A stretch of DNA of 64,000 bases from Candidatus Margulisiibacteriota bacterium (GTDB taxonomy: Bacteria > Margulisbacteria > Marinamargulisbacteria > SXXA01 > SICP01): assembly GCA_009691415.1 (NCBI GenBank), contig SICP01000002.1, positions 36,547-100,546 of the forward strand. The letters run 5' to 3'. Positions 23,504 to 43,400 of this stretch are shown piece by piece. Numbering within the stretch: position 1 is the stretch's first letter; every line of letters starts with the position of its first letter. A program made the translations under genes and the position numbers. The notes under the pieces were generated by a model. The model searched no databases. It was not told where the DNA came from and was given only the letters and a program-made list of their open reading frames with translations.

Positions 23504-24133
23504 ATGAGTACAATTAAAACAAACATCCTAATACAAACATCCCTCACAATCCTCAGCATCATTGTATTAGGCTCTAGTTTTAACACTTCATCTGCAGAGA
23601 CGATCGACACAGAGATCGACACAGACAAGAGCTCACTCACCATAGACACACTTCTTCACTTTGGATCTGGCTTCAGCGATACTTTTCAAGCCCCTAGCGG
23701 CAGCAAAGATTCTGTTAACCTCAACAACAAAACCAACTCATTATCCATACTCAGCGCCGGCTTTAAAGTGCTCGCGCAAGAAATGGATCAATACAATCGT
23801 GAGGCAAGCAGTACAGCAACAGGTACTGGCCCAGCAAGAGTAACCAGCCCCCCACTCGTCTACCCCAATCCTTTTCGCCAAAAAAACGGCGCAAAATTAG
23901 GTTACGGGCTAGCTGGAGAGATCAATGAAATTGAAATACAAATCTATGACATGATGGCCAATTTAATCACCAAAAAAACATTCAAAGATCAAGGCGCAAG
24001 ACAAGGTTACAATTTTATCGATATTAATCTCCAAACATTCGATGGCCACTATCTTTCTGCAGGCGTTTATTTCTTACTCATCCTAAACGACGGGAAAGTA
24101 CTAGCTAAAGGAAAGGTTGCGGTGATCCCATGA
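23504..24133 (+). CDS. small secreted protein with a C-terminal FlgD-Ig-like / T9SS-type (Por_Secre_tail-like) beta-sandwich domain
   Basis: Signal peptide MSTIKTNILIQTSLTILSIIVLGSS. C-terminus ...LVYPNPFRQKNG...IEIQIYDMMANLITKKTF...LSAGVYFLLILNDGKVLAKGKVAVIP resembles the YPNP...IxIYD...GVYF...K motif set of TIGR04183 and FlgD_ig domains. Confidence 0.6.
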   Translation: MSTIKTNILIQTSLTILSIIVLGSSFNTSSAETIDTEIDTDKSSLTIDTLLHFGSGFSDTFQAPSGSKDSVNLNNKTNSLSILSAGFKVLAQEMDQYNREASSTATGTGPARVTSPPLVYPNPFRQKNGAKLGYGLAGEINEIEIQIYDMMANLITKKTFKDQGARQGYNFIDINLQTFDGHYLSAGVYFLLILNDGKVLAKGKVAVIP

Positions 24134-25075: not shown

Positions 25076-28000
25076 GTGAAACGCAAATTATTACTCACAC
25101 TTTTAACCTGGCTTATCCTCTTCGCAACAGCTGAATTTGCGCAAGTCACCTTTACATTTAAAGGCAGTTTAATGCGCGCAGACAAAACGTTCATAAATGG
25201 CACCTACAACAACGTAAAAGTAGGCATATATTCTGACGTTGATGAAAGCGTTGCTGACGTTTGGTCAGAAATACAAAATGGAGTGGTCTTTGAGACAGGC
25301 CGTTTCAGCATTCTTGTAGGCAATGTAGACCCAGTTGCGAACCCCCTTAGAATCAGAACGTTCAACATCAACCTCCCCCACTTAGGATTTACAATCAATG
25401 GCAGCGAATTCTTCATCCCTTTTACCTCAACCCCTTATAGTATGCGAACAAAAGTAGCAGAAAAAACAAGCGCCGTTTCAGCACAATACATCGTAGGAAC
25501 ATTCACAAAGCCCGTTGCCATAAAATCTACATTAACCATTACAAGTGGCAATACAACATTACTTAAAACAACCGCCTTAAGCCAAGTAGGAATCGGCAAA
25601 GACAACCCCTTAACAAAAATCGTCAATGGTAAAACTGTCGCAGCAGCACAACTGGACGTCAATGGCCCCGTCAATAGTAGTAGTGGCTTTAAACTAAATG
25701 GCATTGATATCGCAAGAACATTGTCCTGGAAACAGAATGCCCCTATTACTAAAAATATTTATTATGCCAGCGGAAATGTAGGAATCGGACTTCAAAATCC
25801 ACAGTATGCTCTAGATGTGCAAGGAACACTCAATGCAACACAACTACTTCTAAAAGGGAAACGCTTATCTGCCGGACTAGATTGGCAACACGAAGTAAAT
25901 GCCAGTCAAAATTTATACTTCAAAACAGAAGCAGACAATCGCGTGGGTATCGGTAGAGTAGACCCCCAGCAATCGCTTGATGTTAACGGTAGCATAGCAG
26001 TGTCGAGCAACATCACTGATCAAACTACACCACTCCGCGGCATGATCAGAATGTCCCCCACAAGCAATGAAATACAAGGCTTCCGAGACAACCAATGGAT
26101 TCAACTAACAGGATTGAGAGGGCAAGGTCAAAAAAACCAGATCAGTTTTTTCACAAATAAATTTGTACTTTCTGGCTACACACCCTTTTCTTGGAAATCT
26201 CAAACAAACTTACTAGGTATCGGAACCACCTCGCCTCTATCCCAATTGCATTTAGTTAAAACCGAGACCCTCGCCCCATCGCTATACATACAAACAGCAA
26301 CAAACCTCCCTCTATTGGTAGTAACCTCAAATGGAAATATTGGTGTAGGAACTTCTAATCCCAACCAAAAATTAGTTGTAAAAGGAACCCTCAACTCAGA
26401 ACAACTAACAGTAAATGGCCTAGACTTATCATTAGCCGTCTCAAATTCATCTGTATGGATATTGAACAAACAGAGTAGTCTCTTTTACAAATTAGGAAAC
26501 ATAGGAATTGGAAAAATCGACCCGAACAGTCCACTTACTATCGCACAAAGAGTGAATCATCCTGATGAAGACCCAGCCATCACCTTTCGTCAAAACAGTG
26601 GCAACAGCTACACAATGGGCATAAGCAGTAAAAGACCTGATATTTTCCGAGTAGAACGCGGCGACAAATTAAATACCACAACACCCCTATTCGTCATGAA
26701 AAATTACTCTTTTGGCACGGGACTAACTGATCCGTTAGCGCTACTTCACGTTAGCGGCAACGAAGGCGCCGTCTTCAATGGGAAGTTCTTTGGCGTCATA
26801 GACGAAACTTTCCCTGATGTAGACTCAGCAGGAAAACCCATTCTTCCACAAGTAGTACAAGAGGGGGAAGGAACACGTTTTATTTGGCATCCATTACGCG
26901 CTGTTTTGCGAGCGGGTACAGTAACAGGAAATCAATGGAACAATATTAACCTTGGCAAATTCTCCGTAGCATTTGGGTTAAATAATACTGCCAGTGGTAA
27001 TTTCACAACCATCCTAGGCGGAAAAAACAACCTCGCCACGGGTGCGTATTCCACAATATTAGGAGGCGAAAACAACAAAGCTATGGGCGATTTTTCTTTA
27101 GCCAGCGGATACCGAGCAAAAGCACTTCACCATGGATCGTTTGTCTGGGGAGATCGTTCAGGTACAGCATTAAGCACCATCGCACTTAATCAATTTTTAG
27201 TAAAAGTCTCAAATGGTGTAGGAATAGGAACAGCCCTTACCTCAATAGAAGGCAAAAAAAGTACATTAACAATCAAAAAAGTAACCCCCAGTGGTAATAT
27301 TTTTCAAATAGTCGGCAAAAATCTAGCTACTGACATCTTTCAGGTAAGTACTTCTGGCAATGCCATTATAGGATCTAGATCCAGAACAACAGCAGGTTTA
27401 AGCGTCATGGGTAAAACCCAATTTGGAAACAAACAAGTGCCCCCCACGATCAATAGCTTCTTAACCATTTCCAGCGAATCCCCAACCCAAGCCATTTGGA
27501 TTTCAAATAGTAATGAAGATATCAACACCACTCCCAATTTTATTCTTACAAGCTCAGGAAATTTAGGCACCAACATCATTCCTTTGCCAGACGTTATTAC
27601 GAAATTTAAAAATGGAACAGTACAGATAGGAAGAGGCGGCATATTAGGCAATAGTTATGAACTCCCTGATGGAACAAAAATCGGGACAAAGGCTACAGAA
27701 GTCTGGGGCTTAGACGCAGCACCCAATGTCTATTTCACCACTGGAAATGTAGGTATTGGGACAACACGACCTACAAGTCTTCTAACCATTTCAAACGTTG
27801 CCAGCAAACTCTTTCAATCACCCAAAAATCCTGCCATCACATTCTCAAAAAATACAACCCACTACATTTTAGGAATAGAAAATAATGTACCCGATACATT
27901 AAAAATGTTATCTGGTTACGACCTAGCACAACCATCAAAACTTGCGTTTAAATATTCAGAAAATACGCTTGGAAGAATAGGCGTAGGAACAGAAAATCCA

Positions 28001-31000
28001 AGAACTGTATTTCACGTCAATAATCCCGCAATCTTAGGAAAAAGGGTATCCATTGCTACTACAAATACCAATGTAAAATACAACTTAATTACAGGATCCG
28101 CTTCTTTTAGGCCTCTATTTTTAGACAAGCAATTTATGTCTGCATCTGGAACACCTTGGACAACAACAAGAAATTTTAGCCTATATTTTACAAATGGGAA
28201 AATTGGAATTGGCACAACCGCGCCAACAGTAGCTCTCTCAATAGCAGGAAATATAAAAGCAACAGCCGTCCGCATCAAAGATGCATTTACTGTCAAAGAA
28301 ACAGCAACTTTAATTCGACTTGATTTCTTAAATCCCGATGGCATCTCATTAAAATTAGGGGTAAGCGCCTCGAAGTTACGCCTTGGAGACATCTCTATTT
28401 CAGACATACTCTCAAGGGGAAATAATACAGCACAAACAAAAGGGCCATTACTCTTATGGCAAAGCGCCAATATCATAGGAGACACAAACCTAATATGGTC
28501 ATCTGATTCCGCACCCCCCCATCAAACGGGCACCTTAACCTCTACTAAAAATATCCGAATCCCAACAACACTAACCAAAACAAACTCATTCCAGCAAACA
28601 ACATTGGTACAAGTAGGATCTGCGAACATTACAAACGTACTTAATGTCGCCTCAGATCTCACCCATAACGGAAATTTCTCTAACTCAGAATCACATGCCA
28701 GTCAAAAGATAACCGTCAATTTAGAACCTGGTAATTGGGCAGACCCTATCAATACGACACAACCTATATTCACAGGACTCGACATAAGAATAGTTAATAA
28801 GGCTAATCTAAGTGGTGCTACAAATTTTACAACACAAGCACAAGCAATAGGATTAAATATTGATGTAAGCAAAATAAATACCCAACAAACTGGAGAACCC
28901 GGATTCAATTTTGCCGCTCTTTTTAATGGTAACGTGGGCATTAATACATTCCCATCTCCAACTACTCCAACCAGAGCCATATTGGATATAAAAGGCACCG
29001 TACAAGCAGATTCATTTATCATATCCAAAAGACTCAGCATTTCCACGCTGAACGTAACAGGAGACACGTTAACAATAAAACAAACAAGACCTATTAAAAT
29101 TGGAAATCCTAAACCAACAAACCCTATCTACGATCTTCTGGTACAAGGAACTGTACAAGCAACAAACGGCATTATTGGAACATTAGAATCTGGAGCACTA
29201 AATGCTGCAAATGGGGCTCTTCTCGTAAATACATCCGGGCAAATAGGGATTGGCACAACAGCCCCAGAAGGTACCTTTCACATCAAAAAATTATTTACCA
29301 CAACAACAGGCAGAGATTATTTCGCTAACAGAGTGCATAGCACCGTTGATATTCTGGAAAACCCAAAAAAATTAACAGAAAATCTTACAGGCCTGGGACT
29401 CAATCTAAACACAAAAACAAACAATAAAGTAGGGACGCCACAAACACCTCAAACAGCAACAGGCTTATCCATCAATCTCAGCAATATGACTTCAAACGAT
29501 AATGGTACGGTAATCGGGATTTCCAGCAAAACCAATAAAACCAAAAACCAAACGAAATCTGCCATATTTTCAGGAGGAAATGTTGGCATCGGCGTCACAC
29601 AACCAACCGACACACTCGTTGTAGTTGGAACCATCCGAGCCAAAGCGGTAGACAATACACGCTTATTAACACAACAAGAAGCCGCCTCATTTAATAGACT
29701 TGTTGTAACTAGTAATGCACTCTTTAAAGGCCACGTAACTGCAAACGCAATCTTCGCTACAACCATCATCACCAAAACCGATCAACTCACCATTAACGGT
29801 AGTATCCTTCTCCCTTCAATCGCACTAACTATACAAGAAACTCCAGGATTATTAATTAGCAGAGCACTTTCAATAACAGCTAACACAAAAATAAACGCCC
29901 TCTCCCTCAACGAAAAGCTCGTAGGTACAGCCGCAACATTTAACAAGCTTACTTTGACCAATTCACTCACCACCACCACGCTCAATATCTTGAGCTTACA
30001 AGCAAGTGCCTCTATTGAATTAAATGCCGCACAAGCAAACTTAAATTCACATACAATTATTGCCAGCGGAAAAGTTGGCATTAGCATAACAGACGCAACA
30101 GAACGCCTCGCTATCGCTAGCGATAAAAAAGAATCTACAATCTTCCGTGCTCAAAACCTCTCAGCAACTAAAAATACTGCAGCAGGAATTTTATTGGTTC
30201 CTGACATCAAATCAGACCAAAATACAGGCTCCGGCATTGCAGCCATTAAAGTCACCGCCGCAGGTTCAAATTCACCGGGCTCAGAACTGGCTTTCATCAC
30301 AGATCCCATCAATGGATCTCCTACAGAACGCGCACGTCTTACACAGATCGGAAATTTTGTAATTGGCACAAAAAATGCCTCCAGTACATTATATGTAAAT
30401 CAAACTTCCCTAATACAAGGAGCGGCTACATTTAATACAAAGGTCACCACAAAAACCCTAGCTTCAGCAAGCGACATCATCATCAAAAAAACAACCGTAT
30501 TTAACAACCCAACTGAAATAAGTACGCTCTTAACACAAAAACCTATCCAGATTAAATTGGCAACACTTGGCACCGTTACATCTGGCACCAGCGCATTAAG
30601 TCCCTCCGCATCCGAAAAATTAATATACAAAACGATCCTAGATGACAACTCAGTGGTCGCATCGGATATCACTTCACTCGTAACAGGTTCTGTCGGAAGA
30701 CTTCCCTATTACAACAGCAGTCATAGATTGACAGATAACACATCTTTGACCTGGGCAACACAAAATATATCCAGCATTCCCTATAGCACCCTCGTTATCG
30801 GAAAAGTAAGTTCCGGTAGCATGGCCATCGTAACAACATTCAAAAATACATTAACCGGTACCCCAACCGCAGAAGATATCCAACTCACATTTAAAGACCG
30901 CACTTCTGATATTTCCACATTTGGAGAAAGAAAATTCTACGGAATGCAAATTATCGCTTCCAAAAATACCAATGCGAGCGTTGCTCCTGGGGAAACAGCA

Positions 31001-34000
31001 AGAGGTCTATCTGTTGACCTCTCCACCCTTAAATCAGAAAGCACCACTTTTCAAGGTAACGGCACTATCCTTAAAGGAACAAAATATGCAGCCCTTTTCA
31101 ATGGTGGAAACGTCGGAATTGAAACAATCTCTCCAAACGCTACATTACAAATTCAACCGAAAGATACTATTACCTCCCTACAAATCGACACCAAAACACA
31201 GGCCGGCACAGTCATCACCAAAGCTCTCATGGTCAATACCAGTGGAAATACTAGCATCGGCGCAACCTCAAACACCAAACTAACCCTTAAGCTATTAAAC
31301 ACAACGTCATCAGACTCCACCCTACTGATCACAGATTCAAACAAAAACTCCCTTCTCGCTCTCAAAAATAACAATAGAATCGGCATAGGAAATGTAGCAC
31401 TTACCACCGAATTTAATGTGGCTGACCCAATCAAAGCCAAAACACATACAGCACGAACATTGCTCGCAAATACACTCACCATCAACACCGATAAATTAGT
31501 CGTTCTAACCAACGGAAATGTGGGCATTGGTAATACAAATCCTCAAGCTCAACTCCATCTGATTCAAAAACTCACCCGACAACCTGCCTCCAACTTTATT
31601 ATAGAAAACTTAGGCCTTACGGTTGGAGGCACTCCCCTTAGAACAACGTTAACAGGACTCGCGTTAACAATTACATCCAATGCTTACAATTTATTAGGAT
31701 TCGAGAACACACCAAATAAAGGAACCGGCATTAAATTTTCTGCAACTTCTTTGGCACTCGCCACAACATCCACTTTAGTAGGTATCAACGTTAATGTACC
31801 AAAAGGCACCAGCTCAAACAGTACATTAATCAGAGGAGGAAACGTAGGGATAGGAATAACCAATCCAAGCGCCACACTCCATATCGCAGGCACATTAAAA
31901 GTAAGCGGAAATATTCTTCAAACAACAACTGGAAACCTGTCTATTCCTGGAGTAACCGCAAATAAATTAACATCAACCGGAAGAAATACATTTAACACGT
32001 TTAAAGTCCGTGGCTCAGTAAAAAAAGTAGTGATTACAAATAGATTAATTATTAAAGAATCTTCTGTTTCTCTTCTACAAAAAGCCCCCACCACAAATTT
32101 CATTTTATTAAAAAGCAAGACGCTTGCTCGCTTTACACAAGCATCAACAGGAACAAGCAACATCCCATCAAAAAGCGTATTCAATATCGCTGCTCAATTA
32201 CCAACACAAACAGCTATGACACTTCAAAAAGGAACCGTTATAGCAACAAACATGTCCACACTTACGACAAACCGAGGACTCGTAACACTCACGCATGATA
32301 GTTCATTAGATACACCCCCAATACCCGCGTTAAAAATCGGAACAACCGTAACCCCAAATGCACTATTCGTCAGTAATACGGGACAAGCCAGCGTCGGAAC
32401 CTCTTCAAGCCTTGCAAAATTAACAATCATAGAAGGAAGTGCACGATCAACAGCAAAAGCACTCTTAATTACAAGTTCTGCTGGATCCCCTTTATTAACA
32501 GCACTCAACAACACAACAATAGGCTTAGGAACAAAAACTCCGGAAGCCTTAATCCATATCGTAGGTCAAAGTACCCAGCCTAAAGTTCTAAAATTAGCTT
32601 CATCCGTTTCTGAAAACATATTAACCATGCTAGCAAACGGTGCCATTGGCATTGGCATAACTGCCCCCGATAGCGCGCTACAGGTTCAAGGCACATTCAA
32701 AGTTTCATCAGTAAGTACCCCCAATCTTATTTCTGTATCTAATGCAGGAAACGTAGGAATTTGGAAGACCGCAACCGCAAACTATCCTCTCTATCTTGAC
32801 CAAAATATGCGACTAGGAAACAGCACCGACGGAACACTTCCTAAGTATTTTAGGGACCAGTCTAGAAAAAACAGAGGCTTTATTACACAGACTGGCAGTA
32901 ACCACACATTCTTTGGACTTAGAGAAACAGTCACCGGAAATAGCAACTACGCTCCAGTCATTTATTGGGGAAGCAGCAATACAGATGCCTTAACATTCGA
33001 AACCAGCGCCGGACTTGAAGCTGCCAGATTAATCAATAAATCGGTAAGTATCGGCGGCATCATACCAAGTGCAACATTACATATCAGCAATATCAATAAT
33101 ACCACCGCAGCACTACTCACCTTAAAAACTGCAAAACTACCCAATCTACTTACTGTCACAGCAAATGGCTCAATAGGGATTGGAATCGCGCCAACAATTA
33201 ACGCCGATGTCTTTGTCTCAGGATCCATCAAAGCCAAAGGCCTCAAACAACCACCAGGAGGTACAGAATTAACAGCGCCTACTATTAACATCGTCAATTC
33301 AACAACAACCTATTCAAGTTTTTCAGTATCCTCAAATATCCTGTCAGATCATGCGCAAACAGCAGAAGCTATAACTCTTCAACTTGATAAAGATTCTACA
33401 GGAACCTTGATTGGAAAAAGCATAACGTTGTTATCATCTGTTACACAAAACAACGTAAACAAACTCGCTACGACACAACACGGACTACGTGTAGATATAA
33501 GCAATCTTTTTATCGACAAAAATCCAACATTTGGAGACAATATCGCACAAAAATTTGCAGCTGCTTTTAAAGGAGGCAATGTAGGTGTAGGCACAAAAAC
33601 ACCCAAAACAACGTTTGAAGTAACTACCAGAAAAAACGCGCCTGGCAATATCGCTAGTTTCCGAGCAACCCCCAACATCATCCCTGGTGGTAGCACTCCC
33701 GTAAAACAAGCTGATCTCACCTTCACAAGCTACGCCACAGTCAATATTTCCGGACAAAAATTATCTGTCCCTACAGACTCCTTTAAAACCATCGCATACA
33801 CACTAAAAAATGGCCAACTCTTTAATGGCGGCAACACATTCTACGTAACAGACGACATCGCAAAAGATATCATGTCAAAACTTATCCAAAGTAACATCAT
33901 TGACCCCACTACTAGAAACGTACTCCAAACAACTAAAGCGGCCCTGATCACGGCGATTGGTACAGGTTCATCTCCCGGATATTTTAGAGACTACATCACC

Positions 34001-35449
34001 ACAAAAAATGTCTTATCTATTCTCTTACCCTTCATCGAAAAACACACCATTGTTCTGCAACATACAGATCTTAGTAGCGCAGCAACTAGTTACAACGTAC
34101 TAAGTTTTAGCTCAGGACTCGTAGCAAGAAGACCCAATATTGATAGTCCCGTCAATACAACCAAATTATTACAAAACGCCTTTAAATTTTCGGGCAGCGT
34201 GGGTATTGATGTTAAAAAAATTGATATACCGTCACAAAACACCACACTAACCGTCAGTGGCAATATTAGGATCGGTACCATCTTCAATACTTTTAGCGTA
34301 GAACCCGTCGCGGTTGGACCTAGTCTTCGATTCTCTGGTGGTTACCTAGTCAGCGACACAGCCCCTAATAGTGACAACAAAGAAGCGTTTTCTATACTTC
34401 GCAACAATATTGAAGACGGAATCTCTCAATTACGTATCACAGTCGGAGCAGAAAGCACCAGACCAAATGCACTATTCACTGTTGGATATAATACAAAAGG
34501 ACGCACTACAGAATTCAGTGGCGGCTCTTGGAAAAATGTACTCAATGTTCTCGCAACACAAAATGGAACAACTCCTGTTGAACGCGTTGGCATAGGAACA
34601 ACAACACCACGGGCTACGTTACATATTGTAGGAACAGGCAGTTTTAACGAGCTTACTGATACCCCCACAAATATCGCCAAAACCGCACTGGCTCTATTCG
34701 AAAACCAATCCTCTTCTGGCGCACAAACATTAGCTATTAAAAATAGTACAGAGGCTGGACTAACCTCAGAAGCCAATTTTATTACCTTCCTAAGTTCAAC
34801 CACCAATACCAGTACAATAGCGACATTGGGATCTATCGAAGGAAATACAGACGGTGGCGTCAAATTTACATCCCCTGAGGGAGACTATGCAGAGTACATT
34901 CTTAAAGAGAATCCCCAAGAAAATTTAGAGCCCGGAACCGTTGTCGGTATTCATAAAGGCACTATCAGTAAAAACACACAGGGCGCTGATCAAATCATGG
35001 TCATCAGTTCCTCACCTATTATAGTTGGAAACGCAACCAAAGAAACACATAAAAACAGTGCTATGGTTGCCTTCCTAGGACAAGTGCCCATCAACGTCAC
35101 AGGAACAGTGAACGCGGGAGATCTTCTCATCGCATCTGGTCAAAATGACGGCTTAGCCATTGCCCTGTCTGCCAACAAAATTACAGCCTCTCAAATCGAT
35201 CTTATTCTGGGTCGCGCTTGGGAAAGTTCAGACCAAGTAACTGTTAAATCTATAAAATCAGCGATCGGATTTTCTTATGGATTACAAATTTTTGGAACCC
35301 AATTGTCAAGCATAAAAACAATGACATCCAATGTAAAAACCCTACAAAAAGAACTCGCACAAAAACGAAAAGACTCCCTAGAAATACTCGAAAAACGTCA
35401 GAATAAAATCAACCTATTAAAAGAAAAAATAGGGACGGCCATCCCATGA
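25076..35449 (+). CDS. giant secreted fibre-like repeat protein, 3457 aa (GTG start)
   Basis: Uninterrupted 10.4-kb ORF with signal peptide MKRKLLLTLLTWLILFATAEFAQV. A degenerate repeat architecture is punctuated more than 30 times by G-N-V-G-I-G-T-x-x-P-x-x-x-L-x-V. There is an SxAxG-rich block around 26860..27200. It is T/N/S/G-rich. The C-terminal module carries a GDYAEY motif and a terminal coiled coil. It is a paralogue of the gene at 37426..47187. Confidence 0.85.
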   Translation: MKRKLLLTLLTWLILFATAEFAQVTFTFKGSLMRADKTFINGTYNNVKVGIYSDVDESVADVWSEIQNGVVFETGRFSILVGNVDPVANPLRIRTFNINLPHLGFTINGSEFFIPFTSTPYSMRTKVAEKTSAVSAQYIVGTFTKPVAIKSTLTITSGNTTLLKTTALSQVGIGKDNPLTKIVNGKTVAAAQLDVNGPVNSSSGFKLNGIDIARTLSWKQNAPITKNIYYASGNVGIGLQNPQYALDVQGTLNATQLLLKGKRLSAGLDWQHEVNASQNLYFKTEADNRVGIGRVDPQQSLDVNGSIAVSSNITDQTTPLRGMIRMSPTSNEIQGFRDNQWIQLTGLRGQGQKNQISFFTNKFVLSGYTPFSWKSQTNLLGIGTTSPLSQLHLVKTETLAPSLYIQTATNLPLLVVTSNGNIGVGTSNPNQKLVVKGTLNSEQLTVNGLDLSLAVSNSSVWILNKQSSLFYKLGNIGIGKIDPNSPLTIAQRVNHPDEDPAITFRQNSGNSYTMGISSKRPDIFRVERGDKLNTTTPLFVMKNYSFGTGLTDPLALLHVSGNEGAVFNGKFFGVIDETFPDVDSAGKPILPQVVQEGEGTRFIWHPLRAVLRAGTVTGNQWNNINLGKFSVAFGLNNTASGNFTTILGGKNNLATGAYSTILGGENNKAMGDFSLASGYRAKALHHGSFVWGDRSGTALSTIALNQFLVKVSNGVGIGTALTSIEGKKSTLTIKKVTPSGNIFQIVGKNLATDIFQVSTSGNAIIGSRSRTTAGLSVMGKTQFGNKQVPPTINSFLTISSESPTQAIWISNSNEDINTTPNFILTSSGNLGTNIIPLPDVITKFKNGTVQIGRGGILGNSYELPDGTKIGTKATEVWGLDAAPNVYFTTGNVGIGTTRPTSLLTISNVASKLFQSPKNPAITFSKNTTHYILGIENNVPDTLKMLSGYDLAQPSKLAFKYSENTLGRIGVGTENPRTVFHVNNPAILGKRVSIATTNTNVKYNLITGSASFRPLFLDKQFMSASGTPWTTTRNFSLYFTNGKIGIGTTAPTVALSIAGNIKATAVRIKDAFTVKETATLIRLDFLNPDGISLKLGVSASKLRLGDISISDILSRGNNTAQTKGPLLLWQSANIIGDTNLIWSSDSAPPHQTGTLTSTKNIRIPTTLTKTNSFQQTTLVQVGSANITNVLNVASDLTHNGNFSNSESHASQKITVNLEPGNWADPINTTQPIFTGLDIRIVNKANLSGATNFTTQAQAIGLNIDVSKINTQQTGEPGFNFAALFNGNVGINTFPSPTTPTRAILDIKGTVQADSFIISKRLSISTLNVTGDTLTIKQTRPIKIGNPKPTNPIYDLLVQGTVQATNGIIGTLESGALNAANGALLVNTSGQIGIGTTAPEGTFHIKKLFTTTTGRDYFANRVHSTVDILENPKKLTENLTGLGLNLNTKTNNKVGTPQTPQTATGLSINLSNMTSNDNGTVIGISSKTNKTKNQTKSAIFSGGNVGIGVTQPTDTLVVVGTIRAKAVDNTRLLTQQEAASFNRLVVTSNALFKGHVTANAIFATTIITKTDQLTINGSILLPSIALTIQETPGLLISRALSITANTKINALSLNEKLVGTAATFNKLTLTNSLTTTTLNILSLQASASIELNAAQANLNSHTIIASGKVGISITDATERLAIASDKKESTIFRAQNLSATKNTAAGILLVPDIKSDQNTGSGIAAIKVTAAGSNSPGSELAFITDPINGSPTERARLTQIGNFVIGTKNASSTLYVNQTSLIQGAATFNTKVTTKTLASASDIIIKKTTVFNNPTEISTLLTQKPIQIKLATLGTVTSGTSALSPSASEKLIYKTILDDNSVVASDITSLVTGSVGRLPYYNSSHRLTDNTSLTWATQNISSIPYSTLVIGKVSSGSMAIVTTFKNTLTGTPTAEDIQLTFKDRTSDISTFGERKFYGMQIIASKNTNASVAPGETARGLSVDLSTLKSESTTFQGNGTILKGTKYAALFNGGNVGIETISPNATLQIQPKDTITSLQIDTKTQAGTVITKALMVNTSGNTSIGATSNTKLTLKLLNTTSSDSTLLITDSNKNSLLALKNNNRIGIGNVALTTEFNVADPIKAKTHTARTLLANTLTINTDKLVVLTNGNVGIGNTNPQAQLHLIQKLTRQPASNFIIENLGLTVGGTPLRTTLTGLALTITSNAYNLLGFENTPNKGTGIKFSATSLALATTSTLVGINVNVPKGTSSNSTLIRGGNVGIGITNPSATLHIAGTLKVSGNILQTTTGNLSIPGVTANKLTSTGRNTFNTFKVRGSVKKVVITNRLIIKESSVSLLQKAPTTNFILLKSKTLARFTQASTGTSNIPSKSVFNIAAQLPTQTAMTLQKGTVIATNMSTLTTNRGLVTLTHDSSLDTPPIPALKIGTTVTPNALFVSNTGQASVGTSSSLAKLTIIEGSARSTAKALLITSSAGSPLLTALNNTTIGLGTKTPEALIHIVGQSTQPKVLKLASSVSENILTMLANGAIGIGITAPDSALQVQGTFKVSSVSTPNLISVSNAGNVGIWKTATANYPLYLDQNMRLGNSTDGTLPKYFRDQSRKNRGFITQTGSNHTFFGLRETVTGNSNYAPVIYWGSSNTDALTFETSAGLEAARLINKSVSIGGIIPSATLHISNINNTTAALLTLKTAKLPNLLTVTANGSIGIGIAPTINADVFVSGSIKAKGLKQPPGGTELTAPTINIVNSTTTYSSFSVSSNILSDHAQTAEAITLQLDKDSTGTLIGKSITLLSSVTQNNVNKLATTQHGLRVDISNLFIDKNPTFGDNIAQKFAAAFKGGNVGVGTKTPKTTFEVTTRKNAPGNIASFRATPNIIPGGSTPVKQADLTFTSYATVNISGQKLSVPTDSFKTIAYTLKNGQLFNGGNTFYVTDDIAKDIMSKLIQSNIIDPTTRNVLQTTKAALITAIGTGSSPGYFRDYITTKNVLSILLPFIEKHTIVLQHTDLSSAATSYNVLSFSSGLVARRPNIDSPVNTTKLLQNAFKFSGSVGIDVKKIDIPSQNTTLTVSGNIRIGTIFNTFSVEPVAVGPSLRFSGGYLVSDTAPNSDNKEAFSILRNNIEDGISQLRITVGAESTRPNALFTVGYNTKGRTTEFSGGSWKNVLNVLATQNGTTPVERVGIGTTTPRATLHIVGTGSFNELTDTPTNIAKTALALFENQSSSGAQTLAIKNSTEAGLTSEANFITFLSSTTNTSTIATLGSIEGNTDGGVKFTSPEGDYAEYILKENPQENLEPGTVVGIHKGTISKNTQGADQIMVISSSPIIVGNATKETHKNSAMVAFLGQVPINVTGTVNAGDLLIASGQNDGLAIALSANKITASQIDLILGRAWESSDQVTVKSIKSAIGFSYGLQIFGTQLSSIKTMTSNVKTLQKELAQKRKDSLEILEKRQNKINLLKEKIGTAIP
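25777..34640 (+). repeat. array of degenerate protein-level repeats in giant gene 1 marked by the ggaaaYgtNggNatYgg (G-N-V-G-I-G) signature
   Basis: Examples at 25777, 26338, 26497, 27739, 29578, 31108, 31513, 31843 and 32749. The units are diverged at nucleotide level, so these are not identical tandem DNA repeats. Confidence 0.7.
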
Positions 35450-35973
35450 ACGAAAAACATATCCATTCCGAACAAATTTATAAGGGCCGTATTATAAATC
35501 TGAAAAAAAATACGGTACTCCTTACCAATGGAAAAACCGCCACCAGAGAAATTGTTGAGCACGATCCCGCAGTCGTTATCATCGCCTACGATACAAATAA
35601 AACAATTCGGCTAGTCAAACAATACCGCACCCCCGTACAACAAGTTCTACTCGAAGCCCCTGCCGGAATAATTAATAAAGGTGAGCTTCCTCTCAACGCA
35701 GCTAAACGAGAATTACAAGAAGAGACAGGCCTCACCGCAACACAGTGGACCTCCTTAGGCGAAGCCTACCCTGCCCCAGGATTTTGCAATGAATACCTTT
35801 ATTTTTTTCTTGCACAAGACCTTCAGCAAGGGCCACCAAATCCAGATGAAGATGAATTTTTAGAACAGGTAACACTCTCAATGCCAGAATACAAACACCA
35901 CATCCAAACAAAACAAATTATCGATGCCAAAACCATTATGTCTTTTTTTTACATAAAGGAGCACGGATTATGA
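35446..35973 (+). CDS. NUDIX hydrolase (ADP-ribose pyrophosphatase-like)
   Basis: Nudix box GIINKGELPLNAAKRELQEETGL. 175 aa. ATGA overlap with the stop of giant gene 1. Confidence 0.85.
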   Translation: MNEKHIHSEQIYKGRIINLKKNTVLLTNGKTATREIVEHDPAVVIIAYDTNKTIRLVKQYRTPVQQVLLEAPAGIINKGELPLNAAKRELQEETGLTATQWTSLGEAYPAPGFCNEYLYFFLAQDLQQGPPNPDEDEFLEQVTLSMPEYKHHIQTKQIIDAKTIMSFFYIKEHGL

Positions 35974-36839: not shown

Positions 36840-37429
36840 TTATAGCCATCAGCATTCTCTCGCTTCTCATAGCCGTTATCTTCCATGAAGTAGCCCATGG
36901 TTATGTAGCCTATCGATTTGGAGATCCCACAGCCAAACTTCAAGGACGAATTAGCCTCAACCCACTTGTTCACATTGACTGGTTAGGCTCTATTATCTTG
37001 CCAGGCATCCTTATCCTTTCGGGAGCTCCATTTCTAATAGGATGGGCAAAACCGGTACCCATCAACCCCAATTATTTTCAAAATCCTCTCCGGGACATGA
37101 TGTGGGTAGCCATCGCAGGGCCACTAACAAATATCACGATAGCCCTCTTTGCCAGCACAGTTTTAAAATTCCATCTCAACAGTGTTCTCGACTATTTTTT
37201 AGTCGTTTCAATTAGTATTAATATCGTACTTGCACTCTTCAATCTTTTCCCCATCCCACCGCTTGATGGATCTCGGATACTCATGTACATAGCCCCAAAA
37301 TCCATCCAACACTTTTTAACATCCATAGAGCCTTACGGGTTTGTTATTCTATTTTTCTTAGTCTATCTCAACGTTTTTCAGAAGATCTTGCCGTTTCTAA
37401 TCCACCCCATATTGGAGGCACTATTATGA
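36836..37429 (+). CDS. site-2 protease family (M50B) integral membrane zinc metalloprotease, 197 aa
   Basis: HEVAHGYVAYRFGD (HExxH) in TM1, LNPLVHIDWLGS, and the ...FNLFPIPPLDGSRIL motif typical of M50B proteases. ATGA overlap with the start of giant gene 2. Confidence 0.8.
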   Translation: MIIAISILSLLIAVIFHEVAHGYVAYRFGDPTAKLQGRISLNPLVHIDWLGSIILPGILILSGAPFLIGWAKPVPINPNYFQNPLRDMMWVAIAGPLTNITIALFASTVLKFHLNSVLDYFLVVSISINIVLALFNLFPIPPLDGSRILMYIAPKSIQHFLTSIEPYGFVILFFLVYLNVFQKILPFLIHPILEALL

Positions 37430-40400
37430 AATGCAAGTTTTTCCAGAAAAGACTCGATATGAAAAATAAGAAAATCAAAAAAAATAAGGGTATAATTGTG
37501 AAAACACTCATGAAAACAAAAACGTTAATCACCCAAGCCCACCTATGGATAGCTATCCTCTTCCTAACTTTGCTTACATCTGTGAGCTTTGCGACTACCC
37601 CAATGGTCTTAACATTTCAGGCTACCCTAGCCAGACAACAAGGAGGACTTATTCAAGGAAGAAACAAAGTAACGATTGGAATATATCCGGGAAATTCAAT
37701 TGAACCCACCTGGATTGAGCCTCACAATAACGTACTCTTTATCAACGGTAGTTGCAGTATCATTCTGGGAAATATACAACCGCTTACCCCAGACCATCTC
37801 AATGTTCCAAATCCTCGCTTCGGACTAAAAGTGGGTAACACTTCACAAATTGCCTATTTTCCTGTTCCATCAACCCCGTATTCCATACAATCTAAACTAG
37901 CTGACAGTGCACTCTCCGTTTCAGCCAACAATATTTCAGGAACCTTCACAAATCCAGTTAGGATTAACGCAAACCTAACTGTAGGCGACACAACCCTATA
38001 TGCCAATCCAACCACAGGAAAAGTAGGTATCGGGACTACCGCCCCCACTTACAAACTGGATGTTGCAGGAATCATTAATGCAACCGGATTTAAAATTAAC
38101 GGCATCGACTTAGAATCTTCATTATCTTGGCAAAAAAAAGCCAATAACGCTCTATACTACACACAAGGAAACGTCGGAATAGCAACACAAAATCCAAAAA
38201 CACGTCTAGAAGTCGCTGGGACCATCAATGCACAAGAAATACGAATCAAAGGCGTTGAACTCTCAATCCTACTTGCCACTCAACTTGCCTGGCGTGAAGG
38301 TGCTAGACCTAAAGACATCTATTTTAATGACGGTACTCAAGAAGGCAATGTAGGAATTGGCACATCGATACCACGATCAAAACTAGATGTTGCTGGAGCT
38401 ATTCGCGTAGGAGAAGCCCAAAGTAACACACTGGGAAGCATTCAATATAAAAACAATGATTTCCAAGGATTTACAAAAACAGGATGGACTTCTTTTGCCT
38501 CTCTATCCGGTATCGGCGCAGCTAATCAAATTCCTTTCTGGACAAATTCCACAGAACTTTCCGGAAGCACTAATTTAGTCTGGGATCGCACACGAAATAG
38601 ATTAGGCATTGGAACAAATAACCCTACAGCACAACTCAGCATGACTGCCATTGACGCCAATCGTGCACTTGTACGCATCGACAATTCATTAGGGAAAACA
38701 CTATTTTATGTAGGCAGTCAAAATGTTGGGATTGGAACATCAACCCCAAATAGCAAACTAACCGTAAAAGGAGTCGTTGATGCGGAAGCCTATCTCGTCA
38801 AAGGGGTTCCTATCGCACAAGCCCTGTCTTCAAACTCATTTTGGGTTTTCCAAAACGATGGACGTATTTACTATGATAAAGGCAACGTGGGAATTGGCAC
38901 AATAAATCCTAAAAATCTTTTAGAACTAGCCGCAGCCCCATCACGAGACCCCATCATTACATTTGATATTGCAAGCAACCCCGCTTTCAGTTTAGGTATA
39001 TCAGCATCAAATCCAAATGCCTTCATATTAGGAAAAGGAGGGGATCTCAAAAACCCAATTTTTGTTTTTAATGGCAATAAAATTGGCGTAGGTCTCACCT
39101 CACCGAGCGCCAATTTACATGTGAGTGGAAACAGCGGCGTTCTTTTCACAGGAACACTAAATAATGGAACTCCCCTTGGCTTAAAAGGTGAAGGCACACG
39201 ACTCGTTTGGCACCCAGGAAAAGCCGCATTTAGAGCAGGTTATGTTAATAGAAAACAATGGGATGAAGAAAATATTGGTCTGTATTCTGTAGCAATGGGA
39301 TATAATCCCTCAGCCAATGGACTTGCATCGGTAGCAGCGGGTGGTTACGAAAGTGATGCAGGCGGAAATTATGCAGTGGTTGCCGGTGGATTCAAAAATA
39401 AGGCAAAAGGTATCCATAGTTTCGCTGCAGGGCACCAAGCATTAGCTCTCCATGCCGGATCATTCGTATGGAGTGATTATTCTCCAACTGCATCAGAAAC
39501 AAGCTTTAAATCAGTAATGTCCAACCAATTTGTTATACGTGCTACAAATGGTGTCGGTATTGGAACAAACCTAACAGCAGGAAATGGGCTCACTGTTGCA
39601 TCAGATTTTAATGACACTTATATCGTAAATGCACTAAAACCAGATGGAACAAGCGCCATGATCATCAACGTATCAGGCAATGTTGGATTGGGAACAACCG
39701 ATCCAGGAATCGCTAAACTTGCTGTCATGAACGGAAAAGTTGGGATAGGAACAACCACACCGATCGCGCAATTAACTCTATCGGGAAGTACACCTGACGG
39801 ATTCCAATTTGTCGCTTATAAAAAAACAGGAGTACCCGCATTCTTTATAAAAAACGACGGCAGAATCGGAATCGGAAAACCTCTAAACTATGTATTCGCT
39901 GATGACATCTATTTGGCTATTTCAGGCGCTATTGTAGGCAATGCCTTTGCCATACAAAATCCAAATGGAAGTCAGACACAGTTAGAAAGTAATCCAGGAT
40001 CACCTTGGGCCATCCCTTCTGAAAATCTTAACAGCACTTTCTTCAATAAAGGCTTTGTAGGAATAGGAACAAAAGCACCTGCAAGTCTTCTGGAATTGTC
40101 CAACGCCGCCTCATCAACTCGAAATCCAGTCATTACATTCGACACAGATGGCGTCAAAAGATTTAGTTTAGGTACAACTGCAAATGTATTTACTATTCAA
40201 AAAGGTGGCACTATCAATAGTAAAAACCCACTTTTCGCACTCACAGATAATGGTAACGGGGGTGGTGGCGTTGGCATTGGCATTGGTTACAAAACCCCCA
40301 GCGCCTCTCTACATGTCAGTGGCAATTCTATGTTTACCAGTAAAGTCGTCATTGCCACAACCAATACCACGCAGATCTATGACTTAACTGTAGAGGGAGC

Positions 40401-43400
40401 AATAAATGTCAAAACACTATTTATAAACGGAGATCAATTTATCCCTCAACCTAACCCATGGAAAACAAATGAACTAGACATCTACTACCCAAGCGGAAAC
40501 GTGGGAATCGGAACAAGAACCCCTAGTGCAAAACTTGAAGTTATTGGAACTGTTTCTGCCAATCAGATCATACAACGTGATGCATTCATACTAAACGGAA
40601 ACCTCACGACAAACAAATTGAGACTCAAAGATACCAGCGCCAATGTAACCCAGTACGGAGAACTTGCAGTCACAAACGAAGAACTGATTTACATAGATCC
40701 CGCTAGAAACCTCAAAGTTATTTCATCTCCATTAAGACGAAATTCTAATGCAGCTTTTGACGGAAAACTTGCGTATTGGATCGACAACTCTACTGTCGGC
40801 GTAAGCAATATTTTATGGAAACATGCAACTAACGAATTAGTCCTATCAGGCAATTTGGTTGTGAATGCCTCTTCACAAGAAACAGATGGATTCACAGCGC
40901 TCTCTCATGTGTCAATGGGACTTCCAAATGCTCTCGAAATCACAAGCACTATCAATCATGGAGGTGATTTAAGAACAGTAAGAAGCTACACAGGACAAAA
41001 CATCCTCGTAAACGTACAGAAAAACTGGGGAAATATTAACTCCGCTGTTTCGGTAAAAGGTCTAGACATTATCATGCAACAAACTGCTAACAATCTCTTT
41101 TTAAACAAAGCCAAAGCCATAGGCCTCAACGTCGATATGTCTAGAGTAAATGTTGATGTAATAGGAGGCGGAAAAAAAGCAGCTGCCATCTTTACAGGAG
41201 GCTTTGTAGGTATTGGCACAACAAATCCTAAAACAGCACTCGAAGTAGTAGGAACTGTTTCCGCAAATTATTTTAACCTAACCGGCGGATTAACTGTTCC
41301 AGAACTCTTTGTTAATACAGATGCACTTGTTGCATACAAAGATGTATCCACACAAACTCCTCGCGTAGGTATAGGCACAACAAGTCCTAGAACAGAATTA
41401 GATATTATTGGAACGGTATCTGCAAATGTATTTAATGTCGCAAATACATTTACAGTAGCAACACTCAATGTAAATAAAGGCGCTTTATTCGTAAATAGTG
41501 CTGGAAATATTGGAATTGGTACCACACAACCCAATGGGCAAATTGAATTAAAGAAAATACTCAGCACCACCCCTAGCTCACCTTTCTTTGCAGAAAAGAT
41601 TGGCGTCACAATAGATGGTGCAGGAAAAGATCAAACCTTTGCCTTCAATAAAAATTTAAGCGGTTTAGACATTACCTTAGACTCAGAAACAGGAAGCCAA
41701 ATTGGAAACGGTAAAATCGCAACAGGTGTAAGTGTCAATTTAACAAATCTAGAACTTGATCCAGCAAGCACCGCTGTAGGACTTAATGTGAATGTAACAG
41801 GCACAACAGGCAAAAGATTTGCCGCCATTTTTACAGGGGGCCGTGTAGGTATAGGCGTCACACAACCCTTAGCAGAACTACACGTAAGTGGCAGTATCAA
41901 AGCAGACAATCTAGTACTTGAAGGTACTTTAGAAGCAAATATAGCCACATTTAACAGACTCACAATCAATCAAACCGGTCTATTTAACAATTCTGTAACT
42001 ATTAATACACTTACTGTACTTGGAAAGCTAAGCGCAAATTCACTTGTACTCAGCACCCCCTTAATAGCCGGACAAGGAACCTTTTCAACCCTTAATGCAC
42101 AAGTCGCATCCTTCAATAAAGTCACGCTAAATACACTCACCGTAAACAGTATAAATGGCAGCGCTACAACAGCCACACTTAATACACTCACCGTTACAGG
42201 AAAAACACGTGCGCAATCCGTCATAATCACCAAGAGCCTAACCCTCACAAATGCAACGATGAACATCAATAACAATACACTCGTGGTCACGACTAGTAAA
42301 AATGTAGGTATCGGTACAAGAACCCCCCTTACCATCCTACATGTCGAAAATGCCAATGCAAACGTATTTTCAGCTGAAAATAACAATACATGGAATACAA
42401 TACGCATTCAAAACAACAACAATGCCGCAAATTCCGCAGCATCTATTTTATTGGTTCCTGATGAGAGACACCCCTCATTCAGCATTGGCTCAGGCATCTC
42501 CGCAGTCAGAAGTAATAGCAGCATAAATTCTGGGTCAGACCTAGTATTTGTCACCGATAGAAATAGCAGTGCTCCAGTAGAGGGAATGCGCATTACAGAA
42601 GCAGGAAATATTGGTATTGGCACATCAACACCCAAAGCCCAACTCGATGTACAAGGAACAGCTTGGTTCAATAGCACTGTAACCATAAATGGCACATTAG
42701 GTGTAGGAACACTCAATAGCACAAACAATTTAACGATTAATACACCCAGGGGGAAAAGTATCTTTCAAAATACCGTTTCTGCCAATGCCAGCATACAAAT
42801 ACAAAACGGTTTATTTTTCAAAGGAACCACACCACCTACAACACAAGCAGGTTATGGAGCTCTCTATATGCTTAGTACAGACAAAAATCTATACTACCAA
42901 AGTCCAGCAGGAACCAGCATTAACCTAACCGCCGCCTATACAGGTAGAAATGGTATTATTCCATTCTTTAACGCCAAAAACAGCCTCGATGATACAGCGC
43001 CCCTTTACTGGAACAACACCAGCAAAACACTCACCGTAGGAACCGGCAATATCGTGAGCAATGTCAAAATTGTCAGTGTGATTGATAACAGTACCAATCC
43101 AACAGAATTTGCAGGACAAAATATATCGCTTGAATTCGGAAACCGTACAACAGCCAGCACCACTGTATTTTCAGGATTAAATATACAGCTTAAAGGCCAA
43201 ACCCCTAACGATCCCTTTACATTCGGACGCTTAGCTCAAAACGAAGTTGCAATAGGATTAAATGTAGATGTCAGTAACCTAGCTGCACGTCGAACCAATT
43301 CTCTAGGAAACAATCTCACAGGATTTAAGTACGCCGCAATATTTACTGGTGGCAGTGTCGGCATCGGCAATAAAACGCCCATTGCATCACTACATATCAC

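What the first reader, a model, noticed from the sequence alone, without database searches (positions are those of the whole stretch)
34771..35449. Shared roughly 230-aa C-terminal module with a G(A)DYAEY motif and a terminal coiled coil in both giant proteins
Giant 1 (34771..35449) and giant 2 (46538..47187) end with collinear sequence: NFITF(L/M)..T...G(S/E)IEG..(D)G.GV(K/R)F.(S/T).(E/A)GDYAEY(I/L).K..P.E...G.(V/I)VG...GKISKNT.GA.QIMV.S.......N........A(F)(L/F)GQV..NVTG....GD.(L/I)......DG..IA........(S/E)QI..ILGR.WE... Each then has a 40-aa heptad-like coiled coil (LKTELENLQNQQQELSNQFEQKLEAQNKEIDALLLKLKK / KTLQKELAQKRKDSLEILEKRQNKINLLKEKIG). A conserved globular C-terminal domain plus a trimerising coiled coil is what one sees in phage tail fibre and spike C-terminal assembly or chaperone domains and in some adhesin tips. 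I do not see the SDxRLK hallmark of the peptidase S74 intramolecular chaperone. This may therefore be a distinct, possibly undescribed, terminal assembly or receptor-binding domain.
Basis: partly seen in the sequence, partly recalled or inferred. Interest (0 to 1): 0.65.

Follow-up and report, generated by a model that had tools for sequence, protein, structure and literature searches.

The report
Self-cleaving chaperone domain on giant fibres
Both giant proteins end in a divergent copy of a known phage tail-spike domain (peptidase G2, as in phage phi29 gp12), which most likely helps three chains fold into a fibre and then cuts itself off; the domain is therefore not new, though its use on giant bacterial surface fibres is little documented.

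Summary
G1 (25076-35449) and G2 (37426-47187) share a collinear C-terminal module of about 220 aa with a G/A-DYAEY motif and a terminal heptad helix. The proteins are paralogues over their whole length, so the module is not a special shared piece.

The module is not undescribed. It is a divergent Peptidase_G2 (PF11962) intramolecular-chaperone, autoproteolytic domain, the type found in phage phi29 gp12 domain D4.
- Pfam hits it (27.4 bits for G1, 20.1 for G2; cutoff 25).
- A family profile hits the solved gp12 and Dpo31 D4 chains, which both start at the D of D(F/Y)AEY.
- hhalign gives 93.7% probability.
- An AlphaFold2 model (pLDDT 90) finds 3suc and 3gqh first.
- D-[YF]-A-E is invariant in 94 of 94 homologues.

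GADYAEY is therefore the predicted cleavage and catalytic motif: the cut falls before the Asp and releases about 188 aa (G1) or 186 aa (G2).

This clade differs from phi29. It lacks a 45-aa insertion, adds a helix of about 55 aa, and sits on signal-peptide-bearing chromosomal proteins of 200 to over 5,600 aa in many phyla. An exhaustive search found 9,262 cluster representatives.

The window is a housekeeping chromosome related to the MAG "bacterium UBP8_UBA817" and to Marinamargulisbacteria. Verdict: new member of a known kind, modest interest.

The parts
25076..35449 (+). G1, giant fibre-like protein (3457 aa). It has an N-terminal Sec-type signal peptide (MKRKLLLTLLTWLILFATAEFA) and 7 'VGIGTxxPxxxLxV' repeat motifs.
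   Evidence: ORF; sequence and motifs; identical to database protein P0127; full-length paralogy with G2.
37426..47187 (+). G2, paralogous giant fibre-like protein (3253 aa). It has a signal- or anchor-like N-terminus and 11 'VGIGTxxPxxxLxV' motifs.
   Evidence: weak beta-helix (Bactofilin) Pfam hit.
34691..34882 (+). G1 conserved pre-cleavage segment (residues 3206-3269, ALFENQ...NFITF...LGSIEG...GGVKFTSPEG). This is the predicted C-terminal cap of the mature fibre after processing.
   Evidence: Conserved across the family (A1, A3); beta strands 29-36, 43-51 and 57-60 of the model; coordinates.
34880..34897 (+). G1 cleavage and catalytic motif G-DYAEY. The predicted scissile bond is Gly3269|Asp3270 (34882|34883); the catalytic pair is Asp3270 and Glu3273.
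   Evidence: Aligns to phi29 gp12 S691|D692-F-A-E695 and to Dpo31 A|D664-YAEY; D, A and E are invariant in 94/94 homologues and the residue before the cut is A, G or S.
34883..35281 (+). G1 globular beta-rich chaperone domain (residues 3270-3402), gp12-D4-like and consistent with tandem beta-tulips. It includes the conserved blocks VAFLGQVPINVTG..AGD and ILGRAWESS.
   Evidence: AF2 model with pLDDT mostly above 90; Foldseek top PDB hits 3suc and 3gqh; BFVD hits to phage preneck-appendage and tail-fibre proteins; hhalign.
35276..35440 (+). G1 C-terminal helix of about 55 residues (3401-3455) with a heptad pattern; a probable trimeric coiled coil.
   Evidence: Helix 196-250 of the model; heptad analysis; an L/E/A/Q/K/R-rich tail of median 52 aa is present in 137/137 top family representatives.
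46435..46626 (+). G2 conserved pre-cleavage segment (residues 3004-3067, VVIENTG...NFITF...LGEIEG...GVRFKTAGA).
   Evidence: Alignments; coordinates.
46624..46641 (+). G2 cleavage and catalytic motif A-DYAEY. The predicted scissile bond is Ala3067|Asp3068; the catalytic pair is Asp3068 and Glu3071.
46627..47028 (+). G2 globular chaperone domain (residues 3068-3201).
   Evidence: 38-42% identical to the G1 module; Pfam PF11962 at 20.1 bits, E 4.7e-4.
47029..47184 (+). G2 linker plus C-terminal heptad helix (residues 3202-3253, ...AAISTLKTELENLQNQQQELSNQFEQKLEAQNKEIDALLLKLKK).
   Evidence: Heptad analysis; alignment to the G1 helix. The helix itself was not modelled for G2.

Best explanation
The shared C-terminal module is a divergent Peptidase_G2-type intramolecular chaperone, the autoproteolytic domain type defined by domain D4 of the phage phi29 tail spike gp12. 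Here it is extended by a C-terminal coiled coil. The proposed mechanism has four steps. First, each giant protein is exported through Sec (inferred from the signal peptides). Second, the terminal helices and the beta-rich domains of three chains associate, which sets the register at the C-terminal end and nucleates folding of the long trimeric beta-helical shaft (inferred by homology to gp12 and Dpo31 D4 and to trimeric Bdellovibrio fibre repeats). Third, once the trimer has formed, the invariant Asp and Glu of D-Y-A-E hydrolyse the peptide bond just before the Asp: Gly3269|Asp3270 in G1 and Ala3067|Asp3068 in G2. Fourth, a fragment of about 188 aa (G1) or 186 aa (G2) is released, and the mature fibre ends in the conserved ...NFITF...LG.IEG...GV.F... 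cap. What is shown here is homology, fold, position at the C-terminus and conservation of the catalytic motif. Cleavage, trimerisation and export are inferred.
For: Pfam PF11962 hits G1 at 27.4 bits (cutoff 25, E 2.7e-6) and G2 at 20.1 bits (E 4.7e-4), and many homologues carry a precomputed PF11962 annotation. A family profile searched against PDB sequences finds the Dpo31 chaperone domain D4 (E 3e-6), the phi29 gp12 C-terminal fragment 3gqh (E 4e-5), full-length Dpo31 and gp12 (6qz9, 3suc). The D of DYAEY falls on the first residue of the 3gqh chain (DFAEYFE) and on the Asp of ADYAEYFE in full-length Dpo31. hhalign of the family profile against the phi29 gp12 C-terminus gives 93.7% probability and E 1.9e-7, aligning TWS|DFAEYFE and VGLLGQIAVRI with GA|DYAEYL and VAFLGQVPVRV. 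The AlphaFold2 model has pLDDT 90.1. Foldseek ranks 3suc first and 3gqh third in the PDB, followed by beta-tulip capsid decoration proteins; this is expected because gp12 D4 is a tandem beta-tulip (bioRxiv 10.1101/216911). In BFVD there are 42 hits at E<=1e-3, including 'preneck appendage protein', a Campylobacter phage tail fibre and 'Peptidase G2 IMC autoproteolytic cleavage domain-containing protein'. D, A and E of the motif are invariant in 94/94 aligned homologues and the preceding residue is small; D[YF]AE is present in 135/137 top representatives. The module is always at the C-terminus. Mature phi29 gp12* ends at residue 691 (PMC6542822). Dpo31 D4 is traced from Asp664, is trimeric and is lost from expressed protein (PMC13317679). 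The shaft repeat VGIGTxxPxxxLHV matches the trimeric Bdellovibrio fibre Bd2133 (8ond).
Against: The Pfam support is borderline. The match covers only model positions 29-100 of 228, full-length G1 scores 21.7 bits (below the cutoff), and G2 is below the cutoff in every test. Single-sequence searches of the PDB found no G2-family hit. Foldseek TM-scores are moderate (0.37 normalised by query, 0.56 by target; rmsd 5-8 A). The clade differs from phi29 D4: it has no 45-aa insertion and it has a long terminal helix that phi29 lacks. Release of phi29 D4 is ATP-dependent (Xiang et al. 2009, from my own knowledge; ATP site mentioned in PMC13317679). A Sec-exported protein would fold where there is no ATP, so that step cannot be the same. 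Cleavage and trimer formation were not tested; only a monomer could be modelled.
Confidence: 0.78

Rival explanations
1. The module is a permanent, uncleaved distal tip that serves as a receptor-binding or adhesive domain.
For: It is globular, terminal and follows a fibre-like shaft. Cleavage has not been shown. Some Bdellovibrio fibres end in non-cleaving tip domains (PMC10769870).
Against: Receptor-binding tips are usually variable. This module is conserved at 35-50% identity across many phyla, on carrier proteins of 200 to over 5,600 aa. The catalytic D-x-A-E is invariant. The module is homologous to domains that are removed from mature spikes (PMC6542822).
Confidence: 0.07
2. The module is a gp12-D4-like beta-tulip trimerisation cap that has lost proteolysis. 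It would stay attached as a foldon-like clamp together with the coiled coil.
For: The added coiled coil and the absence of cytoplasmic ATP for release could fit a permanent clamp. Related beta-tulip domains serve as stable trimer interfaces in capsid decoration proteins (bioRxiv 10.1101/216911).
Against: Strict invariance of Asp, Ala and Glu and of a small residue before the cut in 94/94 sequences is hard to explain without catalysis.
Confidence: 0.1
3. The module is a peptidase S74 (endosialidase, T5 pb1 or MYRF-type) intramolecular chaperone.
For: It has the same position and the same general role, and S74 domains do end cellular fibres in Bdellovibrio (PMC10769870).
Against: There is no PF13884 hit at E<=1, no SDxxxK motif, and the predicted fold is beta-rich rather than helical.
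Confidence: 0.01
4. The giant genes are prophage or phage tail-fibre genes rather than cellular genes.
For: The domain family was defined in phages, and structural relatives are common in phage tail fibres.
Against: The window carries housekeeping genes throughout (KsgA, PdxA, AcrB, IlvD, FtsEX, transketolase, RseP, SepF, FabF/D/H, GlnA, YchF) and no phage structural genes. The proteins have signal peptides. The locus is syntenic in related genomes. A pattern scan of IMG/VR found no relative of this clade, against 149 in bacterial genomes.
Confidence: 0.03

Closest known systems
Bacillus phage phi29 gp12 (pre-neck appendage) domain D4; MEROPS family G2, Pfam PF11962
   Same: It is a C-terminal domain of a fibrous or beta-helical protein. 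It has the same D-(F/Y)-A-E-Y motif at the cleavage site and the same LLGQ(I/V)xVR(I/V) block. The beta-rich fold is recovered as the top PDB match. The predicted role is trimerisation chaperone followed by self-cleavage.
   Different: phi29 D4 has a 45-aa insertion between the two conserved blocks and no C-terminal coiled coil. It folds in the cytoplasm and needs ATP for release. Here the carriers are Sec-exported chromosomal giants. Sequence identity is only about 29% over 89 aligned columns.
Tail spike Dpo31 of the marine podovirus Carin-1, chaperone domain D4 (PDB 28nb, 28lx; PMC13317679)
   Same: This is the best PDB sequence hit (E 3e-6). It has an identical ADYAEY motif, D4 starts at that Asp (Asp664), and D4 is trimeric and is lost from expressed protein.
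   Different: It is a phage depolymerase spike of 828 aa, and one search aligns only the beta-rich blocks. Whether it has a terminal helix was not examined.
Bdellovibrio bacteriovorus MAT (mosaic adhesive trimer) fibres (PMC10769870)
   Same: These are chromosomal, signal-peptide-bearing trimeric surface fibres built from beta-helix repeats. The VGIGTxxPxxxLHV repeat of G1 and G2 matches Bd2133 (8ond) and 8ojn. In that paper 13 of 21 MATs end in a self-cleaving chaperone.
   Different: The MAT chaperone is S74, with a Ser-Lys mechanism and a helical fold, not G2. MATs are about 1,000 aa, whereas these proteins are 3,250-3,460 aa. Homology of the N-terminal domains was not tested.
Peptidase S74 intramolecular chaperones (endosialidase, T5 pb1, MYRF ICA)
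   Same: They follow the same logic: a C-terminal trimerisation chaperone that removes itself.
   Different: The fold and the catalytic residues are unrelated. Tested here and not met.

Membership tests
Peptidase_G2 IMC autoproteolytic cleavage domain (PF11962 / MEROPS G2) | Sequence match to the family model at or above Pfam's gathering score | tested here: inconclusive
   The G1 C-terminal 399 aa score 27.4 bits (cutoff 25), but full-length G1 scores 21.7 and G2 scores 20.1. Only model positions 29-100 of 228 are matched. Many homologues carry a precomputed PF11962 annotation.
Peptidase_G2 IMC autoproteolytic cleavage domain (PF11962 / MEROPS G2) | Profile-level homology to structurally characterised members (phi29 gp12 D4, Dpo31 D4) | tested here: met
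   hmmsearch of the family profile against PDB sequences gives E 3e-6 (28nb), 4e-5 (3gqh) and 1.5e-4 (6qz9). hhalign gives 93.7% probability, E 1.9e-7.
Peptidase_G2 IMC autoproteolytic cleavage domain (PF11962 / MEROPS G2) | Catalytic Asp and Glu spaced D-x-x-E, with the Asp immediately after the scissile bond | tested here: met
   DYAEY aligns with phi29 D692-F-A-E695 and with Dpo31 D664-YAE, and the 3gqh chain starts at this Asp. The motif is invariant in 94/94 homologues. The catalytic role of these two residues rests on Xiang et al. 2009, MEROPS and Pfam, from my own knowledge.
Peptidase_G2 IMC autoproteolytic cleavage domain (PF11962 / MEROPS G2) | gp12-D4-like beta-rich (tandem beta-tulip) fold | tested here: met
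Peptidase_G2 IMC autoproteolytic cleavage domain (PF11962 / MEROPS G2) | Location at the extreme C-terminus of a trimeric fibrous or beta-helical protein | tested here: met
   The module is C-terminal in G1, G2 and all 137 of the 150 listed representatives that were re-analysed. The trimeric beta-helix shaft is only inferred, from the match to Bd2133 repeats and weak beta-helix Pfam hits.
Peptidase_G2 IMC autoproteolytic cleavage domain (PF11962 / MEROPS G2) | Autocatalytic cleavage after trimerisation, followed by ATP-dependent release | not testable with these tools
   This needs protein expression and mutagenesis. ATP dependence is doubtful for an exported protein.
Peptidase S74 intramolecular chaperone (PF13884) | Model match and the Ser-Lys catalytic motif S-D-x-x-x-K | tested here: not met
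   There is no PF13884 hit at E<=1 and no SDxxxK in the last 400 aa of either protein.
Bdellovibrio MAT-type cellular trimeric fibres | Signal peptide, then a conserved N-terminal beta-rich domain, a beta-helix shaft and a variable or chaperone C-terminus | tested here: inconclusive
   The signal peptides and the shaft repeat matching Bd2133 and 8ojn are present. Homology of the N-terminal domain was not tested, and the chaperone is a different type (G2, not S74).
Type IX secretion cargo | C-terminal T9SS sorting domain on the cargo protein | tested here: not met
   G1 and G2 end in the G2 chaperone plus coiled coil, and no Por_Secre_tail hit was found. Only the small upstream protein 23504-24133 has such a domain.

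The most novel reading that the evidence does not exclude
The module may define a distinct, largely cellular clade of G2 chaperones. Its features are a compact beta-tulip core, a conserved pre-cleavage cap of about 65 aa (about 90 aa counting the last shaft repeat) and an obligatory C-terminal coiled coil; in some members a C-terminal membrane anchor follows the coil. This clade would work outside the cytoplasm, without ATP, to fold surface fibres of up to 5,600 aa or more in many bacterial phyla. In the Marinamargulisbacteria-like lineage it would be part of a dedicated, translationally coupled fibre operon (PorV/PorQ-like barrel, CTD protein, two giants, small M50 protease) that amounts to an undescribed fibre export and assembly pathway.
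Probability: 0.2. Interest if true: 0.55.

Novelty: new member of a known kind. Interest (0 to 1): 0.3.

Why it matters
The result gives a function to the ends of two otherwise unannotated 10-kb genes. It predicts exact processing sites: Gly3269|Asp3270 in G1 and Ala3067|Asp3068 in G2. It also implies that both giants are trimeric surface fibres, and each of the two sites can be tested with one expression construct plus Asp/Glu mutants. More broadly, the phi29-type self-cleaving chaperone is very common on chromosomal fibre proteins that are mostly named "hypothetical protein": 9,262 cluster representatives at E<=1e-3. Pfam detects these only marginally. A dedicated model for this coiled-coil-bearing clade would improve annotation of giant bacterial surface proteins. 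It is not a new kind of domain.

Tried and rejected
- Single-sequence phmmer of each C-terminus against the PDB found no G2-family hit. It found only weak hits of the upstream shaft to a xylanase CBM and to 8ojn. The profile search was needed.
- NCBIfam gave nothing for the module. PHROGs gave only weak families of unknown function.
- A scan of IMG/VR viral contigs with the clade's AFLGQVPV pattern found no relative. The test depends on that pattern, so distant phage relatives are not excluded, and BFVD does show them.
- Xiang et al. 2009 (the phi29 gp12 structures) is not held in the paper library. Statements about the catalytic Asp and Glu and about ATP-dependent release rest on my own knowledge plus PMC13317679, PMC6542822 and bioRxiv 10.1101/216911.
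- A trimer model was considered, using three linked copies.
- S74 membership, a prophage origin and a T9SS-cargo reading were all tested and rejected.


Full report
**Observation.** The window holds two very long ORFs on the + strand: G1 (25076..35449, 3457 aa) and G2 (37426..47187, 3253 aa).
blastp gives 33% identity over 435 aa with E 1e-49.
- A global alignment from NFITF to the stop has 85 identities in 224 and 216 residues.
- NFITF begins at 34775 in G1 and 46537 in G2. GDYAEY lies at 34880-34897 and ADYAEY at 46624-46641.
- D[YF]AE[YWF] occurs nowhere else in the six-frame translation of the window.
- Two corrections are needed. The giants are also paralogues over their whole length (32% identity over about 2,900 aa), so the module is simply the end of two paralogues.

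**What the module is.** Five lines of evidence place it in the Peptidase_G2 family.
- Pfam places both C-termini in PF11962, "Peptidase_G2, IMC autoproteolytic cleavage domain". G1 scores 27.4 bits against a cutoff of 25 (E 2.7e-6) and G2 scores 20.1 bits (E 4.7e-4). The match covers only model positions 29-100 of 228, and full-length G1 falls to 21.7 bits. By Pfam alone the assignment is borderline.
- A profile built from the two modules and 13 homologues, searched against all PDB sequences, finds the chaperone domain D4 of the marine podovirus tail spike Dpo31 (E 3e-6), the phi29 gp12 C-terminal fragment 3gqh (E 4e-5), and full-length Dpo31 and gp12.
- The Asp of DYAEY aligns with the first residue of the 3gqh chain (DFAEYFE) and with the Asp of ADYAEYFE in Dpo31. 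Mature phi29 gp12* ends at residue 691 (PMC6542822), and Dpo31 D4 is traced from Asp664 (PMC13317679).
- hhalign of the trimmed family profile against the phi29 gp12 C-terminus gives 93.7% probability and E 1.9e-7. It aligns TWS|DFAEYFE...GKIRK and VGLLGQIAVRI with GA|DYAEYL...GKISK and VAFLGQVPVRV.
- An AlphaFold2 model of the last 252 aa of G1, built from a 95-sequence alignment, has mean pLDDT 90.1. It shows about eleven strands followed by one 55-residue helix. Foldseek against the PDB ranks 3suc (premature gp12) first and 3gqh third, followed by capsid decoration proteins. That pattern is expected, because gp12 D4 is a tandem beta-tulip related to those proteins (bioRxiv 10.1101/216911). 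Against predicted viral structures there are 42 hits at E<=1e-3, including "preneck appendage protein", a Campylobacter phage tail fibre, [quoted passage not shown] of Synechococcus phage S-SM2, and chlorovirus proteins.

Peptidase S74 is excluded. There is no hit at E<=1, no SDxxxK motif, and the fold is beta-rich rather than helical.

**Conservation.**
- In the 95-sequence alignment, D, A and E of D-[YF]-A-E are present in all 94 sequences that cover the site. The preceding residue is Ala (53), Gly (28) or Ser (5).
Of these, 135 carry D[YF]AE. The module is always followed by a tail with a median of 52 aa that is rich in L, E, A, Q, K and R. Nine add a hydrophobic segment plus a basic anchor after that tail.
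- Such strict conservation of the catalytic pair argues that the domain is an active self-cleaving unit rather than a relic.

**Distribution and context.**
- The exhaustive HMM search found 9,262 cluster representatives at E<=1e-3 and 1,636 at E<=1e-30. Carrier proteins range from about 200 to 5,651 aa, and many are 3,000-4,800 aa giants.
- In one-genome-per-species contigs, 149 places encode the module. They come from Marinamargulisbacteria, UBP8, Bacteroidota, Ignavibacteriota, Planctomycetota, Acidobacteriota, Desulfobacterota and others.
- The same kind of pattern scan found none in IMG/VR viral contigs.
- The closest locus is a MAG named "bacterium UBP8_UBA817". Its module is 81% identical at the amino-acid level, with most aligned DNA positions identical over the module region, and it has a second module 11,765 bp downstream, against 11,767 bp in the window.
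- The window itself is a housekeeping chromosome: KsgA, PdxA, AcrB, IlvD, FtsEX, transketolase, RseP, MazG, SepF, YchF, FabF/D/H and GlnA, with no phage genes.
- Both giants start with signal-peptide-like sequences. They carry 7 and 11 copies of a VGIGTxxPxxxLxV motif, which matches the trimeric beta-helix fibre Bd2133 of Bdellovibrio (8ond; 8ojn).
- Bdellovibrio MAT fibres are the nearest cellular analogue. They are signal-peptide-bearing trimeric fibres, and 13 of 21 end in a self-cleaving S74 chaperone (PMC10769870).

**Mechanism (inferred).** After Sec export, the terminal helices and beta-tulip domains of three chains associate. This fixes the register and nucleates folding of the trimeric shaft from its C-terminal end. 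The Asp/Glu pair then cuts the bond before the Asp: Gly3269|Asp3270 in G1 and Ala3067|Asp3068 in G2. A fragment of 188 or 186 aa is released. The mature fibre ends in the conserved cap (...ENxS...NFITF...LG.IEG...GV.F...), which is itself conserved across the clade. The mature tip is therefore probably not the variable receptor-binding part.

**Differences from phi29 D4.**
- This clade has no 45-aa insertion between the two conserved blocks.
- It has a terminal helix of about 55 aa, which phi29 lacks.
- Its setting is extracytoplasmic, so the ATP-dependent release described for gp12 cannot apply.
- Cleavage, trimerisation and export were not tested. Only a monomer could be modelled.

**Verdict.** Interest is modest.

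Noticed in passing
window 23504-47681: The genes p209, p309, G1, NUDIX, XerD-like recombinase, small M50 protease and G2 look like one translationally coupled operon. Successive ORFs overlap by 4 nt (24130-24133, 35446-35449, 35970-35973, 36836-36839, 37426-37429), and G1 starts 16 nt after p309. The order giant, [NUDIX], Xer, M50, giant is kept in UBP8 MAGs, Marinamargulisbacteria SAGs and several marine MAGs labelled Rickettsiales or Actinomycetota, although Xer is only 32-39% identical. It is unknown whether this reflects function or only lineage synteny.
   Followed up: partly
window 24130-25059 and 23504-24133: The 309-aa protein just upstream of G1 has a signal peptide and matches the PorV/PorQ family over its full length (48.7 bits, E 8e-13, below the cutoff of 90). 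The 209-aa protein before it carries a T9SS type A sorting domain (TIGR04183, 28.3 bits, cutoff 23). T9SS-like parts next to giant fibres in a Margulisbacteria-like genome are unexpected. The giants themselves have no such sorting domain.
   Followed up: partly
window 36836-37429: A small (197 aa) M50-family membrane metalloprotease with an intact HEVAH motif sits between the two giant genes. It is distinct from the full-length RseP at 20153-21235.
   Followed up: no
P0010, P0160, P0164, P0177, P0196, P0200, P0204, P0213, P0221, P0257 (homologues from other genomes): In a subset of family members the coiled coil is followed by a hydrophobic segment and a basic tail (for example LLPGVGIVMGSLGLFWMDRRRKRS). 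The chaperone would then be membrane-tethered, and cleavage would release the fibre, a topology reminiscent of MYRF.
   Followed up: partly
L080 6001-6780 (P0014), L081 6001-6702 (P0035): The module also occurs in short proteins (233-263 aa) without a signal peptide that begin right at the IENTS cap motif. They lie in ordinary chromosomal contexts, one of them next to a DDE transposase. These may be gene remnants or stand-alone units.
   Followed up: partly
window 47217-47681: A 154-aa protein with an acidic tail (DDDDDEETDGDD) and no family match follows G2. It is conserved in the same position in L018, L026 and L009.
   Followed up: no
window 1-64000: GC skew is negative and AT skew positive in every 2-kb bin, whichever strand the genes are on. 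The whole window probably lies on one replichore with strong strand compositional bias.
   Followed up: no
window 41881-42030 (G2 residues 1486-1535) and 26966-27115 (G1 residues 631-680): There are weak Pfam hits to beta-solenoid families in the shafts: Bactofilin at 35 bits in G2 and a grass antifreeze beta-roll at 18.5 bits in G1. These are consistent with a beta-helical fibre.
   Followed up: no
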